Assembly: GCA_039802605.1 (NCBI GenBank)
Contig: JBDRWW010000004.1
Span: forward strand, 1 to 64,000
DNA: 64,000 nucleotides
Source: a candidate division WOR-3 bacterium
GTDB taxonomy: Bacteria; Hydrothermota; Hydrothermia; LBFQ01
Direction: 5' to 3'
This document shows, piece after piece, positions 21,001 through 27,000 of the stretch; within the stretch, counting starts at the first letter, position 1, and each line of letters begins with the position of its first letter. A program made the position numbers.

Positions 21001-24000
21001 CGGCCTCAAGGGTTATACTTATACTGTCCCCGGGGGCGGCAAAAAAGTAAAATGTATAGGTCTTGGGTATCCAAAAAAAGGAGAAAATGCCTATTACCGT
21101 ATCAACTATAACCAAGTTTCAAAACTTTTAAGGGTTTGTATATGGCATTGGGTTTTGCCAATATACTTTGATATACCACGACTTCGCCCGCAATAAAGGT
21201 TTCCCTTTTTATTTTAAAACCCTCAACATTTACGGGCTTTCCCGTTCTGGCTATCGTAATGTGGGGGACAAAGGGTTTATCCCTTGGAGGCAAACCCAGG
21301 CTATCAACTATGCCATCAACCCTTTTGCTCAATTCTATAAGCATCTTTTCTTCCTCAACCCCTACCCAGATAACCCTTGCGCCAAACTCCGTTGGAAAAC
21401 CGCCAATTGAGTTAAATGTTAGGGTAAAGGATTTACCCAGATCCCCTATTGAATCCAAAAGGTTAGCGCATTCCCTATCGCCGATGTCCCCAATAAACCT
21501 AAGGGTTATGTGGAGATTTTCCTTTGGAACGGGTTTTATAAATGGGTATTTTTTATAAATCTCCTTCGCGGCATCGTAAATAACCCTTTTTGCATCCTCG
21601 GGAATATTTAGTGCTATAAAAACCCTCATATTATCTTGGGTGAGAAGACGATTAAACTGTAAATCATAAATATTGCAACCAAAACCATAACCAAACCCGC
21701 AATTATCCGCTGCCTATTTAATGAAGTTGTATATGGATATACGGGTTTTGATGGCCTGCCCAGAAAGAAACCCAACTCCGTAAATATTAACCTCAAACCG
21801 TTTAAACCGTGGATTGCTATTCCCACAACCAATATCCACTCTAAGAAATGTATGATCGGACCTTCCGCCACCTTACTCATGGCCCTTTCCCAAGCCTCGG
21901 GTCCGAAGGTGCGGGAACTAGTAACGATTATGTGCAATGGAAGGTAAAGGGCCAAGCCTACCCCTGTAATCCTATGCAGGGCAAAAAGGTATGCTTCAAT
22001 GTTATACCTCCCTCCAAACAGCCACCTTATTAATCCTCTTCTCTTGTTTAACATAGGCTATTATTCTAAGGTTGTGATATTCCCCATTTGGGAACTTTTC
22101 CGCTTTAAAATACCTTCCTCGCCGGGGTGGCGGAATCGGCAGACGCAGGGGACTTAAAATCCTCTGGGGCTAATCCCCGTGCGGGTTCGAGTCCCGCCCC
22201 CGGCATTTGTTTAAAAAACCCCCTTTGTTTTATGCTTTCCTTTTTATTATTGGTTTTATCATGGGGGAAATCCTCGCAAATTCCTTACACACCCTATTGC
22301 CCAAAAGCGGAGCCTTGGAATTTATCACGGAAACCGTAATCGTAGGTTTTGAAAGCATAAAACTGGACCTATATTTTCTTTTAATAAACCTCGGTTTAAA
22401 GCTTAGGGTTTCCGTACTGGGGATCCTTATGGCCTTGGTTTTTATAGTAATTGGGAGGTTTTTATGATAGCGCAAATAGGAGGGGATAGGTTTGAAGTGG
22501 TTGAAAGCGAGGATAGGATTGATTTAAGTAAAAGGGGTTTAAGCGGGTGGATAGTTTTACACCCCGAGGAATTGATATATATAAACTATTTGGGCAAAAG
22601 GGTTCCCTTTTGTGGAAATGCGACAAGGGTTGTTGGATATATAAACGCAAAGGGTAGGGGATTAAAGGAATATACCGTTTATGCAAATGGTCCTAAGAGG
22701 GTTTTTATAAACGGCGATATTGTCGGAATAGAGGTTGATGTTGATTATGAAAACTTTGGAGAGTTTTCCATTGTTAAACTTGAGGGGGTTTCTCATATAG
22801 TATTTTACAAGAAAAACGGAGAATTGCCGGTGAAGGTTTTGGCCGAGGGTTTTCAAAAGGTTCTTGAAGGATACCATGTAAATTATTACTACAACTATGA
22901 GAACTACCTTTTTGTTAGGACATGGGAATACGGTTATATTTATGAACCCGGCGGATGCGCAACCGGGGGGTTGTCCTGCGGGGTTGATTGGATAATGAGA
23001 AGGGGTTTAAGCGGTGTTGTTATAAAAACCCTTTCGGGGGATTACGGTAGGGTTTTTATAAAGGGGGAAAAGTTTGTACTTGAGAACAAAATATTCATAA
23101 GTAGGATGCCAGCATGATGTTTAAAAGCCTTGAAACCGTTTTCTTCATATCCCTCCTATCAACCACCATATCAACCTGCCCGTGCTCTAATTGAAACTCA
23201 CTCCTCTGAAAACCCTCAGGCAATTCCTGTCTTATGGTTTGCTGTATTACCCTTGGTCCCGCAAAGCCTATTAAGGCTCCGGGTTCCGCTATTATAACAT
23301 CGCCAAGGGCGGCAAAACTCGCCATAACACCACCCATTGTTGGGTCACATAGTATTGTAATATACGGGATCCCCGCTTTTTCCATTTTTATAACGGCAAC
23401 GGTGGTTTTTGCCATTTGCATCAGTGAGAATATACCCTCGTGCATCCTTGCCCCACCTCCGGAGAAGAGTACGGATATAAAGGGCATCCTACTCTTTACC
23501 GCATGATCGGCTGCCCTATAAAACTTTTCTCCAAAGACGCTACCCATAGAACCCCCTAAGAAACCGAAATCCGTAAAAAAGGCCGTAACCTTTATCCCGT
23601 CAATGTGCCCTATTCCCGCAACGCTACTGTCGTTTATACCATACAGCTTTCTGTATTGTTCCAATTTTTGCTTATATCCCGGAAATTCCAAGGGGTCGGT
23701 TGCAATTAGTTCTCCGCCTATCTCTTTTTCAATGCCGTTATCCAAAAGAATTTTTGCATATTCGTATGCGCTTATCCTGAAATGATAAGAGCATTTTGGG
23801 CAAACCTTTGATGTTTTTTCAAGTTCTATGTTCGGAATTATGGATTGGCATGAGGGACACTTAACCCAGAAATCATCGGGTATCTCTAAACTTTTTTGTC
23901 TCTTTGGAGGTGTTTTCTTGGGTCTGAAAAACATGTTAACAAACCGCTATGTTTTCAAATACTATTTTCTCCCACAATCTCGGGATCTCGTTGACCTTCG

Positions 24001-27000
24001 CAAGGGCCAAATCCTCCATATCCCTTAAGGTATTTTCACCATAATCCCCCCAAACCTTTAAATGCACCAATTGTGGTTGATTTACGGGTTTCCCTATTTG
24101 TGAAACCAAATAAACATACACCTGTTCCACGCCTTCAAACCCTTCGTATATCTCTCGTGCTATAATGTTTGCCATAATGTTATAGAGTTTCCCCACATGA
24201 GAAACGGGATTTTTACCCGCTGCCGCCTCTAAGGTCATAGGCCTGTAAGGGGTTATCAATCCGTTTACCCTATTTCCCCTTCCCACCTGACCGTCATCAC
24301 CCGCCTCGGCACTAGTCCCCGTTACGGTAATATATACGGATCCGTTTTCCTCATCGTCGGCCGTATTTATTGATACATCTATTTTCCCATCGGAAACTAT
24401 ATCCCCTATAAGGCTTAACACATCATCCCTTATAGCCCCCTTCAATTCCAAGTAGTCCTTTAAACTGGAAACATACCTATCCACGAATGCCAAAGCAACC
24501 GTAATGTTATAAGTAGAACCGTTTCTAACCACCATAACCTTTATATCCTCACCCACGGCTGGATACTTCCGCTTGTATTCCTTTGAGTTTAAGAACTTTT
24601 CAACACTTAGGGCTATTTTTTCGGCATTTGAAAACGGATAGAATCCAACACCGAAGGATGTATCGTTTGATAGGGGTACCTGCCCGTTTCTATCAAAAAG
24701 GTCTACAAGGTCTATGCTTCCGGGTTTTGCCCTCAATTCAATTTCCAGGTGTTTATCCGGGTTAAGATTTGGGATGTTTTCTTTTATCCAATCCTCAACT
24801 GTATTGTAAAAGATTTCTTTAACCTTTGGGGTTATATCCAAACCCTTGTATGAGTAGGTTAGTCTCCCAACAAGGGAAAAATATATCGGCTCTAAGACCT
24901 TACCACCCCCGAATTTTGGTTCTGCCCTACCTCCAACGAGTATGGCCTTATCAACATTGTGGTGTAGGATTCTCCCAAATGTTTCGTAATACAGTTTTGA
25001 AAGGTTTTTACTGAACTCTTCGGATAAGGAATCGCATATCGTATCCGGATGCCCTATCCCTTTCCTCTCAACTATCTCAAAGCCGTCTTCCTGCCATTTC
25101 CCCATCTTTTCTACCTTAACCATTTTCAAACGGTTATTCTAAGGTTGTAAAAAAAGAGGGGGGCAAGGCCCCCCAATGCCTTTTATCTCCTGATGAACTT
25201 GTATGTCTCTTTGCCAACTTTAACGATATACACACCTTTGGGGAGATTGGAAAGGTTAATGGTATTATTCCCCGCCCTAAGTTGGTATTCCGCAAACCTT
25301 GAACCGTTTAAGGAGTATATGGTTAAGGTTATGTCATAAGGGGTATTAATTGTGATGCCTTCTTTGCCGATATTCACATAATGCTTTTGTGCGCCCTCGC
25401 TAACCGCTAAATCGTCATCCCCTCCAAGGAGCGGACAAGGCCCCCATGTAGTTATATGACAGGAGAAATCACCCACGGAGAAACCGATTTCGGAGGAAGA
25501 AAGCCTTATGATTATCACCTCGGAGGTTATTGAGTAGGGTGTTGTTCCAAATGTTCCCAATATACCCATGGTTTGCCCATTAACTGCCCTTACATTATAG
25601 TTTGAGTACGGGACGAGGGCATCAAGATAACCGTCATTATTAAAATCAAACAAGCTGGGCGGAAAGCCGGTTCCATAATACCCGCTAACCCCAAGACCGG
25701 ATGTCTGACCCAAAAGTGTCCCGTTTGTTCCCCTATATACCATCAACTCACCACCGGATACAATCCAAACATCTTCAAGACCATCCCTATCCTTATCGCC
25801 CAAAGCAACCGGCGAAGCATTCGTTAACCCCGTTACACTCCAAACACTTGTCCAACTTGAACCCATCCACCTATAAACCGTTACAGATGTTGATGTGGGA
25901 ACGACTATTTCATCGGAACCGGTACCGTCCAAATTACCCGTTGCTATGGTATAATCCGGCCATATATTCACCGTGCTCGGAACACCGGCGGAAAACGAGG
26001 AATGAAAGGAACCCGTGGAGGCGCTGAGTATATAAATCTGTCCATTTGTTAATGGGTAAGCCACATACCAATTGCCGCTTATATTTAACAGTGCGGGCGC
26101 AAAGGCGGAGGCTGGAAGCGTATATGTCCAATTCGTCGTATAACTCGTCGCGCATCCGTTTACGCTCACGGCGGTATTACCAAAAGATGTAAATACCTCC
26201 GGGCAGCCATCTGCATTTATATCCGCTATTAAAGGCGAAGCATCCCTCGCGTCCGGTTTATCGTATGTATATACCGTTGCCCCAGTTGTTAGGTTCAAAA
26301 CCCCAAAATAGGAATAACCGTTTGAGAAAACGTATCTTTCCGATGCGGCAACCGAGGCTATACCGGGAGATGTGTAATAATCGTTTAAAGCATCGTCCCA
26401 TATCGGTGTACCCGTGTTCCCATCAAAAGCCGCCACCCCATAACCAGAACTCTTTTGAGCGGCTATTATGTCGTGATCCGCATCGGCATTAACCCTTGTT
26501 GCTATTATGCTTATGTCTATCGACCCGTGCACAACATCGTATAATTCGCCTGGTGATGAACATACGCCCCTTAAGGGAGACCTTCCGGTTCTCCTGTAAT
26601 CGTGTCTATACTGTTTCCAATCCTCCGCCGCCGGCGAATAATCTGCCGGTGGTTCCTTCCACCATTTTGTGGCTTTGTTGTTCCCTATGCTTTGGGTATT
26701 ATAGGAATATTGTAAGCCAATTGTCCCCGTTGAATTCTCTATACCTATGGTTGCATCACCCCCGTAATCGGCATAACTTACCCCAAGTTGGGCGCTCTGA
26801 TAAACCATCTTAAACGAATCCGCGCCGGGAGCACCGGAATTGTATAAGATTATTTCAAATCTCCCCGGATATGTGCTCGCACCAAATCTCCCAACATATC
26901 TCCACTCTATAACAAAATAGCTCCCACCGTTATAGTAGTATATCCCTCCCGAAGAACTTATTACAAGGTCATCCCACATTACGGCTATTATGTTGTTCGG

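What a model noticed while it worked through the whole genome (the two positions that open the first line are those of the whole stretch)
23939..25129. Archaeal-type SAM synthetase in place of bacterial MetK in part of a WOR-3 class
This genome makes S-adenosylmethionine with an archaeal-type synthetase (PF01941). No bacterial MetK was found. Across its class the two enzymes are almost perfectly complementary, and one family holds both. This looks like a non-orthologous displacement caught with its intermediate stage.
Evidence so far: - PF01941 at 2.1e-152. - PF02773 (the MetK C-domain) was not found in this genome. - PF01941 is in 33/272 phylum genomes, all in one class: f1 11/11, f2 7/7, f9 2/2, f11 5/6, f5 3/3, f8 4/5. 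- MetK in the class: 0/29 genomes in f1, f2, f9, f11 and f5. It is 6/6, 8/8, 2/2, 4/4, 4/5 and 4/4 in f3, f4, f6, f7, f10 and f12, and 5/5 in f8. - The control genomes behave as expected: archaea only for PF01941, bacteria only for PF02773. - The 2025 WOR-3 survey does not mention it.
(Added by a program. Inside this text positions count along the whole contig: contig position 1 is position 1 of the stretch shown here. "Call 12" and the like, gene names such as g00115 and contig names such as C1 are that model's own, and its searches are not shown. The text may have been shortened before it was handed on; [...] marks where a part breaks off. The agent that wrote the report below was given it as the finding of a first reader that could run no searches.)

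Follow-up and report, generated by a model that had tools for sequence, protein, structure and literature searches.

The report
Archaeal-type SAM synthetase replacing bacterial MetK
This hot-spring bacterium makes its methyl donor S-adenosylmethionine with the enzyme type typical of archaea instead of the usual bacterial one, a swap already known from a few other bacteria and here sorted lineage by lineage across its class.

Summary
Window 23939-25129 (-) encodes an intact 397-aa PF01941 methionine adenosyltransferase (2.1e-152). No MetK domain or remnant exists in the 90%-complete genome.

In the class (64 genomes), 29 have PF01941 only, 29 have MetK only, 4 have both and 2 have neither. Outside the class, PF01941 is in 0/208 genomes of the phylum and MetK in 195/208.

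The interpretation needs three corrections.
1. The nearest relatives are bacterial, not archaeal. The class's genes form one clade (97/98) beside Aquificota and Thermodesulfobacteriota sequences.
2. PF01941 holders are not one clade in an RpoB+RpoC tree (AU p 1.7e-5). The history is therefore one old gain followed by long coexistence and reciprocal losses, or several transfers within the class.
3. The "both" state is not a fleeting intermediate. In family f12 both genes are intact and under purifying selection, and in one genome they lie 5.5 kb apart on one contig. In Aquificota, 131/178 genomes carry both.

Archaeal-type SAM synthase in bacteria was already printed in 2004 for Geobacter. This is a new member of a known kind: a clean case of gene displacement, of moderate interest.

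The parts
23939..25129 (-). CDS of the archaeal-type (PF01941) methionine adenosyltransferase, also called SAM synthetase. It is 397 aa from TTG at 25129. An alternative ATG at 25123 gives 395 aa. The TAA stop is at 23936-23938.
   Evidence: -: the ORF.
- PF01941, E 2.1e-152.
- NF003366, 522 bits against a cut-off of 435.
- solved archaeal MATs 7p83, 6s81, 4l4q and 4hpv at E 3.6e-115 to 1.9e-101.
- all 51 columns that are invariant over 84 family members are kept (trivially, since the window is one of the rows), including G26-H27-P28-D29. The window also has the majority residue at 33/33 columns that are at least 95% conserved.
23095..23934 (-). accD-like acetyl-CoA carboxylase carboxyltransferase subunit. 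It lies directly downstream on the same strand, one base after the MAT stop codon, and is probably co-transcribed.
   Evidence: -: coordinates.
- PF01039 plus PF17848.
- the same neighbour follows PF01941 in all 12 f1 loci examined, but in no locus of another family.
- an RNA-library contig at least 99% identical spans 23805-23990. This is weak and does not prove a single transcript.
25158..25174 (-). Terminator-like hairpin (7 G-C pairs, 3-nt loop, T-run) between the upstream FG-GAP/T9SS-tail gene and the MAT gene. It suggests that MAT-accD is a separate transcription unit.
   Evidence: The scan as a whole found no more sites than shuffled sequence does (9 found, 9.2 expected), so this rests on the quality of this single hairpin.

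Best explanation
The gene encodes the cell's only methionine adenosyltransferase. It joins ATP and methionine to give S-adenosylmethionine, then cleaves the triphosphate, as solved archaeal enzymes of the same family do. AhcY, still present elsewhere in the genome, recycles the S-adenosylhomocysteine by-product.

Inferred history:
1. A PF01941 gene from a bacterial branch of the family, the one also found in Aquificota and Thermodesulfobacteriota, entered an ancestor of most of this thermophile-rich WOR-3 class. This happened after families f6 and f7 had split off.
2. It coexisted with the native MetK for a long time.
3. Lineages then kept one enzyme or the other.
   - MetK was lost at least twice: on the stem of f8+f2+f1, which leads to this genome, and on the stem of f4+f5.
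   - PF01941 was lost at least three times: in f9, in f3 and in f10+f11.
   - Family f12 still keeps both.

Shown: the presence, intactness and conservation of the gene; the absence of MetK; the distributions; the gene and species trees.

Inferred: enzymatic activity; a single gain; the order of events.
For: Function:
- Full-length PF01941 and NF003366 matches.
- E 3.6e-115 to solved M. jannaschii-type MAT chains, with the catalytic motifs aligned.
- Family-conserved residues kept.
- No other MAT in the genome.
- AhcY present at G000:C8:30613-31995.

The gene is native to the contig, not contamination:
- It lies on a 120-kb contig, G000:C4 (contig lengths).
- Its GC is like that of its surroundings.
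- It is flanked by bacterial genes.
- The accD neighbour is the same in 12/12 f1 loci.

Single origin:
- In the careful IQ-TREE (LG+C20+F+G4, 84 rows) all 30 full-length class sequences form one clade with four unnamed metagenome sequences. Support is ultrafast bootstrap 97 / SH-aLRT 98.
- Each family is monophyletic, and between-family divergences are deep at 1.4-2.3 changes per site.
- Forcing the species-tree grouping f8+f1+f2 is not rejected (AU p 0.128).

MetK is native and was lost:
- The MetK tree has the class monophyletic (100/97), with f6+f7 basal as in the species tree.
- The MetK-AhcY pair is conserved in 8 of the 10 other-class loci and in all 12 f10/f11 loci.

Coexistence is long-lived:
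- G059 contig C29 carries an intact 395-aa PF01941 gene and an intact three-domain MetK 5.5 kb apart.
- Within f12, dN/dS is 0.04-0.19 for PF01941 and 0.05-0.21 for MetK.
- In Aquificota 131/178 genomes have both, several on one contig, for example G275:C1 and G284:C1.
Against: - The species tree rests on only two proteins and 41 of the 64+ genomes, with a site-homogeneous model and fast searches. The careful run did not finish. Its key short branches (0.029-0.035) carry SH-aLRT 96.
- The best PF01941 tree puts f8 with f4/f5/f12 (99/96), not with f1+f2. It also puts f4 nearer to f12 than to f5. That is what a transfer between class lineages would produce. The AU test fails to reject vertical descent but does not show it.
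- PF01941 has a different neighbourhood in every family: accD, LemA, a TsaD-like gene, or Methyltransf_28. Synteny therefore gives no support for one insertion.
- One gain needs at least 5 losses. Three gains need 2 losses.
- Ratios of gene to species distance are lower for pairs across the two holder groups (1.3-1.9) than within families (2.4-2.7). This could be saturation or later transfer.
- Activity is inferred from homology only.
- dS is saturated in most f12 comparisons.
Confidence: 0.6

Rival explanations
1. Several transfers instead of one. PF01941 entered the class once from outside and then moved between class lineages (or entered more than once). It was gained separately by the f8+f2+f1 stem, the f4+f5 stem and f12. 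In two of these it replaced MetK soon afterwards. MetK-only families never had it.
For: - Holders are not one clade in the RpoB+RpoC tree: constraint worse by lnL 109.75, AU p 1.7e-5.
- No PF01941 remnant was found at E <= 0.001 in any of the 31 non-holder genomes.
- Every family has a different PF01941 neighbourhood.
- The best gene tree joins f8 to the f4/f5/f12 group with 99/96 support.
- This scenario needs fewer events in total (3 gains + 2 losses against 1 gain + 5 losses).
Against: - The class clade is monophyletic with deep, star-like family divergences, and no family is nested inside another.
- The species-tree grouping of f8 is not rejected (AU p 0.128).
- Long coexistence is demonstrably possible (f12; Aquificota 131/178). 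Losses after a shared two-enzyme ancestor are therefore plausible.
Confidence: 0.3
2. Artefact. Either MetK is present but unassembled in these metagenome bins, or the PF01941 gene is contaminating DNA from a co-occurring archaeon or Aquificota member.
For: The genomes are metagenome bins. The own genome is 90% complete. Aquificota and archaea share hot habitats with this class.
Against: - MetK is missing in 29/29 genomes of five families, while it is found in 195/208 genomes of the other classes.
- AhcY, MetK's conserved partner, is assembled here with only about 100 bp upstream of it.
- PF01941 sits mid-contig on a 120-kb contig, between accD and a T9SS-tail protein.
- Its sequence tree follows family and genus boundaries of the class.
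- In G059 both genes lie on one contig among housekeeping genes: LepA, GltX and methylmalonyl-CoA mutase.
Confidence: 0.02
3. The PF01941 protein is not the housekeeping SAM synthetase. It has a specialised or altered activity, and the cell obtains SAM by import or by an unrecognised enzyme.
For: - No activity data exist for any bacterial member that I found.
- In genomes with both enzymes (f12, Aquificota, Geobacter) the PF01941 copy may have a side role.
- In f12 it evolves faster than MetK: 80.5% against 93.8% amino-acid identity between G059 and G060.
Against: - All residues conserved family-wide are kept.
- 29 genomes have no other MAT. SAM is indispensable, for example for the radical-SAM MiaB-like enzyme encoded 3 kb away.
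- dN/dS is far below 1.
Confidence: 0.05

Closest known systems
Archaeal methionine adenosyltransferases with solved structures (PDB 7p82/7p83/7p84, 6s81, 4l4q, 4hpv, 4ws9). The organism names, M. jannaschii, Pyrococcus, Thermococcus and Sulfolobus, are recalled, not given by the tool.
   Same: Same Pfam family over the full length. E values are 3.6e-115 to 1.4e-100. The GHPD motif and the long C-terminal motif block align without gaps.
   Different: The window protein belongs to a bacterial branch of the family. It scores below the curated cut-offs of all four archaeal NCBIfam equivalogs: 479 vs 577, 462 vs 553, 447 vs 557 and 289 vs 481 bits.
PF01941 enzymes of Aquificota (Aquifex aeolicus aq_1226 / COG1812, Hydrogenivirga, Persephonella, Thermovibrio)
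   Same: They are the nearest named relatives, at 53-58% identity, and lie in the sister group of the class clade. Hosts are thermophilic bacteria. Part of the phylum (37/178) also has PF01941 without MetK.
   Different: Most Aquificota (131/178) keep MetK as well. In the WOR-3 class only 4/64 do, or probably 5, counting G063.
Geobacter/Desulfuromonas 'additional archaeal-type' SAM synthase (Rodionov et al. 2004, PMC545781; passage read)
   Same: A bacterium carrying a PF01941-type enzyme. The paper describes it explicitly as a second isozyme beside MetK.
   Different: There it is an addition, not a replacement. I did not place a Geobacter sequence in my trees.
Bacterial MetK (PF00438 + PF02772 + PF02773)
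   Same: Same reaction and, according to the literature, the same fold with a shared GHPD catalytic motif (PMC1282579, passages read; 11.9-bit PF00438 hit on the motif).
   Different: There is no significant sequence match to any MetK domain. MetK is the gene that was replaced.

Membership tests
Archaeal-type methionine adenosyltransferase (Pfam PF01941 / COG1812 / PRK04439) | Full-length match to the family profile above the curated cut-off | tested here: met
   508 bits against a cut-off of 27, covering profile positions 8-392 of 395. The whole-genome scan gives 507.6 bits with no internal stops.
Archaeal-type methionine adenosyltransferase (Pfam PF01941 / COG1812 / PRK04439) | Conserved catalytic signature (GHPD) and the other residues conserved across the family | tested here: met
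   G26-H27-P28-D29 are among 51 columns invariant in 84 aligned family members, the window included. The window has the majority residue at 33/33 further columns that are at least 95% conserved. The motifs align to solved chains. Which residues bind substrate is recalled or taken from the literature, not computed here.
Archaeal-type methionine adenosyltransferase (Pfam PF01941 / COG1812 / PRK04439) | ATP:L-methionine S-adenosyltransferase activity | not testable with these tools
   Inferred from homology and from the lack of any other MAT in the genome.
NCBIfam archaeal MAT equivalogs NF003362-NF003365 | Score above the curated equivalog cut-off | tested here: not met
   478.7 vs 577, 462.1 vs 553, 446.9 vs 557 and 288.9 vs 481 bits. 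Only subfamily NF003366 passes (522.3 vs 435).
Bacterial MetK | The three S-AdoMet_synt domains (PF00438, PF02772, PF02773) | tested here: not met
   None of the three is found in the protein. None is found anywhere in the genome above noise.
Non-orthologous (xenologous) gene displacement | The canonical gene is absent although it is present and vertically inherited in relatives | tested here: met
   MetK is in 0/29 genomes of f1, f2, f4, f5 and f8, against 195/208 outside the class. The MetK tree matches the species tree. Here the MetK-AhcY pair is reduced to AhcY alone.
Non-orthologous (xenologous) gene displacement | The substitute gene was acquired horizontally, shown by phylogeny | tested here: met
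   PF01941 is in 0/208 genomes of the other classes. The class clade sits next to Aquificota and Thermodesulfobacteriota sequences. The donor and the direction of transfer between these bacterial phyla are not resolved.
Non-orthologous (xenologous) gene displacement | A single displacement event with a transient intermediate | tested here: not met
   Holders are not monophyletic (AU p 1.7e-5). The two-gene state in f12 is old and under selection, and it is common in Aquificota.

The most novel reading that the evidence does not exclude
The two classes of SAM synthetase form a long-lived, functionally differentiated pair in thermophilic bacteria, not a redundant pair on its way to loss. They might differ, for example, in regulation, product inhibition, thermostability or substrate range. 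The pair is seen in most Aquificota, in WOR-3 family f12 and in Geobacter. The WOR-3 class would then be a natural experiment: one ancestral two-enzyme state was resolved repeatedly and in both directions, with at least 2 losses of MetK and at least 3 of PF01941. That would show the two are interchangeable as sole enzyme, and it gives matched lineages for asking what decides the winner.
Probability: 0.35. Interest if true: 0.55.

Novelty: new member of a known kind. Interest (0 to 1): 0.38.

Why it matters
SAM synthetase is one of the few nearly universal enzymes. The split between an archaeal type and a bacterial/eukaryal type is used in arguments about early evolution. One paper calls the two distributions an almost perfect anti-correlation (PMC2481427, passage read). 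Another assigns PF01941 to LUCA (PMC11670089, passage read).

This work shows a sizeable bacterial branch of PF01941. It is the sole enzyme in 29 genomes of one WOR-3 class and in 37 Aquificota genomes, and it sits beside MetK in 131 Aquificota genomes. Domain-level presence/absence is therefore a poor proxy for history.

In practice, metabolic reconstructions of these bacteria that look only for metK would wrongly report SAM synthesis as missing. The paired lineages also offer material for comparing the two enzyme classes in one cellular background.

Tried and rejected
- Thermophily as the sorting factor. Reverse gyrase (TIGR01054, over the cut-off) is in 42/64 class genomes. It is in 20/29 PF01941-only, 19/29 MetK-only, 2/4 'both' and 1/2 'neither' genomes, so there is no association.
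- SAM riboswitch. A gathering-level Rfam scan of the window found only two tRNAs. MetK loci were not scanned.
- Synteny as evidence for one insertion. PF01941 neighbours are conserved within families and differ between them, so this is uninformative.
- First AU test (p 0.001). It is invalid, because I left P0021, an unnamed sequence nested inside f2, outside the constraint. I repeated it with P0021 included and got p 0.128.
- Careful species tree. It did not finish in the time allowed. A full IQ-TREE run timed out. The AU test therefore uses fast searches under LG+G4.
- The search for related loci in genome contigs returned only 7 loci. Naming of deeper branches rests on 20 cluster look-ups, and most clusters carry no name.
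- Expression. Two RNA-library assemblies hold short contigs at least 99% identical, at 24729-24921 and 23805-23990 in X1 and in the flanks in X2. Two raw-read runs laid nothing. DNA carry-over cannot be excluded, so there is no verdict on transcription.
- Literature searches for a prior report found none that describes this for WOR-3 or for Aquificota. The main texts of the 2025 WOR-3 survey (PMC12542636) and of the sy37 isolate paper (PMC12285271) contain no 'adenosylmethionine', 'metK' or 'methionine'. Their supplements were not read.
- Graham et al. 2000 and Sanchez-Perez et al. 2004 were seen only as references. They may already mention bacterial members.

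
Full report
**1. The observation**

Window 23936..25129 on the minus strand is an open frame of 397 codons from a TTG. An ATG two codons further in gives the 395-aa form that public protein sets hold.

- It matches PF01941 over the whole profile: E 2.1e-152, 508 bits, positions 8-392 of 395.
- It matches NCBIfam subfamily NF003366 at 522 bits against a cut-off of 435. It stays below the cut-offs of the four archaeal equivalog models.
- Against solved structures the best hits are archaeal SAM synthases, at E 3.6e-115 to 1.4e-100. The GHPD motif and the long C-terminal motif block align without gaps.
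- In an alignment of 84 family members, 51 columns are invariant (window included). At 33 further columns where at least 95% of rows agree, the window has the majority residue in 33 of 33.

The gene is intact and looks like a working enzyme.

**2. MetK is really absent**

The genome is 1.65 Mb in 23 contigs and 90% complete.

- It has one PF01941 match and none for the MetK C-terminal or central domains.
- The only 'hit' of the N-terminal domain is an 11.9-bit match to the GHPD motif of the PF01941 gene itself.
- tblastn with 42 MetK proteins from the phylum finds nothing better than E 0.03.
- In 8 of 10 loci from other classes, and in all 12 loci of families f10 and f11, MetK is followed directly by adenosylhomocysteinase, PF05221/PF00670.
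- This genome has that AhcY gene at G000:C8:30613-31995. Only about 100 bp separate it from a divergently oriented gene, and there is no MetK remnant.

**3. Distribution**

In the class's 64 genomes:

| State | Genomes | Where |
|---|---|---|
| PF01941 only | 29 | f1, f2, f4, f5, f8 |
| MetK only | 29 | f3, f6, f7, f9, f10, f11, and G063 of f12 |
| both | 4 | G059-G062, f12 |
| neither | 2 | G010, G017 |

- Outside the class, PF01941 is in 0 of 208 genomes and MetK in 195 of 208.
- Two gaps are assembly breaks. In G063 the contig ends inside the Methyltransf_28 gene that precedes PF01941 in its sister genomes. In G010 two contigs begin inside the TsaD-like gene that follows it.
- G017 is 67% complete and also lacks the RpoB domain.

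**4. Where the gene came from**

- The closest proteins outside the class are from Aquificota (Aquifex aeolicus aq_1226, Hydrogenivirga, Persephonella, Thermovibrio, Hydrogenothermaceae), at 53-58% identity.
- The careful maximum-likelihood tree (84 rows, LG+C20+F+G4) joins all 30 full-length class sequences and four unnamed metagenome sequences in one clade, with support 97/98.
- Its sister group (90/82) holds the Thermovibrio group, a set of unnamed representatives, and Thermodesulfobacteriota plus Aquificota.
- Named archaea lie outside: Methanoperedens, Nanoanaerosalina, Njordarchaeia, Micrarchaeaceae. One further bacterium, Ca. Saccharicenans, also lies outside.

'Archaeal-type' therefore names the family. 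The immediate source was a bacterial branch of it. The direction of transfer between WOR-3 and Aquificota is not resolved.

**5. History inside the class**

An RpoB+RpoC tree was built from 41 genomes and 2583 columns, rooted on five genomes of other classes. Its topology:

- f6+f7 (MetK) are basal.
- Then comes a clade with three parts:
  - f9 (MetK);
  - (f8,(f2,f1)), all PF01941 only;
  - (f3 [MetK], f12 [both], ((f4,f5) [PF01941], (f10,f11) [MetK])).

Further tests:

- Forcing all holders into one clade costs 109.75 log-likelihood units, AU p 1.7e-5. This used fast searches under LG+G4, and the group was named after seeing the tree.
- The MetK tree gives the same picture: class 100/97, f6+f7 basal, and f12 among its neighbours with ordinary branch lengths. 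MetK is therefore native and was lost at least twice.
- For PF01941 the choice is one gain with at least three losses, or about three gains.
- The gene tree is ((f8,(f5,(f4,f12))),(f2,f1)). It differs from the species tree in the place of f8. With the constraint specified correctly, the species-tree grouping is not rejected: AU p 0.128. An earlier run was mis-specified and is void.
- PF01941 has a different neighbourhood in each family, so synteny does not help.
- Between-family divergences are deep, at 1.4-2.3 changes per site.

I favour one old gain with reciprocal sorting (about 0.6) over several transfers (about 0.3).

**6. The 'intermediate'**

- In G059 one contig carries an intact 395-aa PF01941 gene and an intact three-domain MetK 5.5 kb apart. 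Between and beside them lie LepA, GltX and methylmalonyl-CoA mutase.
- Across f12, both genes show dN/dS of 0.04-0.21, although dS is saturated in most pairs.
- PF01941 changes faster than MetK there: 80.5% against 93.8% identity between G059 and G060, with RpoB at 96.8%.
- In the phylum of the Hydrogenothermaceae genome behind L062 (178 genomes), PF01941 is in 168 and MetK in 138. By cross-tabulation, 131 have both, 37 have PF01941 only, 7 have MetK only and 3 have neither.
- Several of these are single-contig genomes with both genes. In G373 and G344 the two genes lie about 1 kb apart.
- Geobacter was reported to have both in 2004 (PMC545781).

The two-enzyme state is thus a stable condition in its own right.

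**7. What does not explain the sorting**

Reverse gyrase is widespread in the class (42/64) and equally frequent in both single-enzyme groups, 20/29 and 19/29. The class is thermophile-rich, which fits the source of the gene. Heat alone does not decide which enzyme is kept.

**8. Local anatomy**

- The gene is followed after one base by an accD-like gene on the same strand. This arrangement is found in 12 of 12 f1 loci.
- It is preceded by a strong terminator-like hairpin at 25158-25174.
- No riboswitch was found in the window.
- RNA-library contigs at least 99% identical cover parts of the gene and the junction with accD. They cannot prove transcription.

**9. Verdict**

It is wrong in implying an archaeal donor, a single event and a transient intermediate.

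Archaeal-type SAM synthase in bacteria is in print (PMC545781). The family is curated by NCBI with a model that this protein passes. I found no paper that describes the pattern in WOR-3 or quantifies it in Aquificota (searches; find). Two key older papers could not be read.

This is a new member of a known kind, with a tidy class-level sorting pattern. Interest is moderate.

Noticed in passing
window 56000-60000: GC falls to 0.30, against about 0.41 in the rest of the window. This may be an island or a foreign segment.
   Followed up: no
G000:C6:68503-70296 and the RpoB loci L069-L072: RpoB of family f1 is 1468-1490 aa, against about 1246-1330 aa in most other families of the class. This points to lineage-specific insertions. 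The f1 branch is also very long in the species tree (0.65).
   Followed up: no
G000:C8:36733-40161; G027:C22:2908-3930: The own genome encodes a full-length reverse gyrase (1374 bits), and 42/64 class genomes pass the cut-off. G027 holds only fragments with several stop codons, probably a decayed copy.
   Followed up: partly
L056 (G061:C74), MetK locus: The MetK reading frame of G061 stays open far upstream: 653 aa within the locus, and 1199 aa by the genome scan. G062 and G063 also have frames of about 440 aa. This may be an N-terminal extension or just an open upstream frame.
   Followed up: no
G373:C194:6930-9647 and G344:C74:7360-9841 (Aquificota): In these two genomes the PF01941 gene and MetK lie within about 1-1.3 kb of each other on one contig.
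   Followed up: no
P0011, P0016, identical to the G038 and G039 proteins in the tree: Public records name these proteins 'Thermotogae bacterium', although the genomes sit in the WOR-3 class by the tool's taxonomy. The source label is probably outdated.
   Followed up: no
window 23936: An RNA-library contig reads C instead of T here. That turns the TAA stop of the SAM synthetase gene into TAG, so the variant is silent.
   Followed up: no
P0129: A PF01941 protein named Ca. Saccharicenans, a bacterium, groups with Njordarchaeia sequences outside the WOR-3/Aquificota branch. This hints at a further, separate arrival of the family in bacteria.
   Followed up: no
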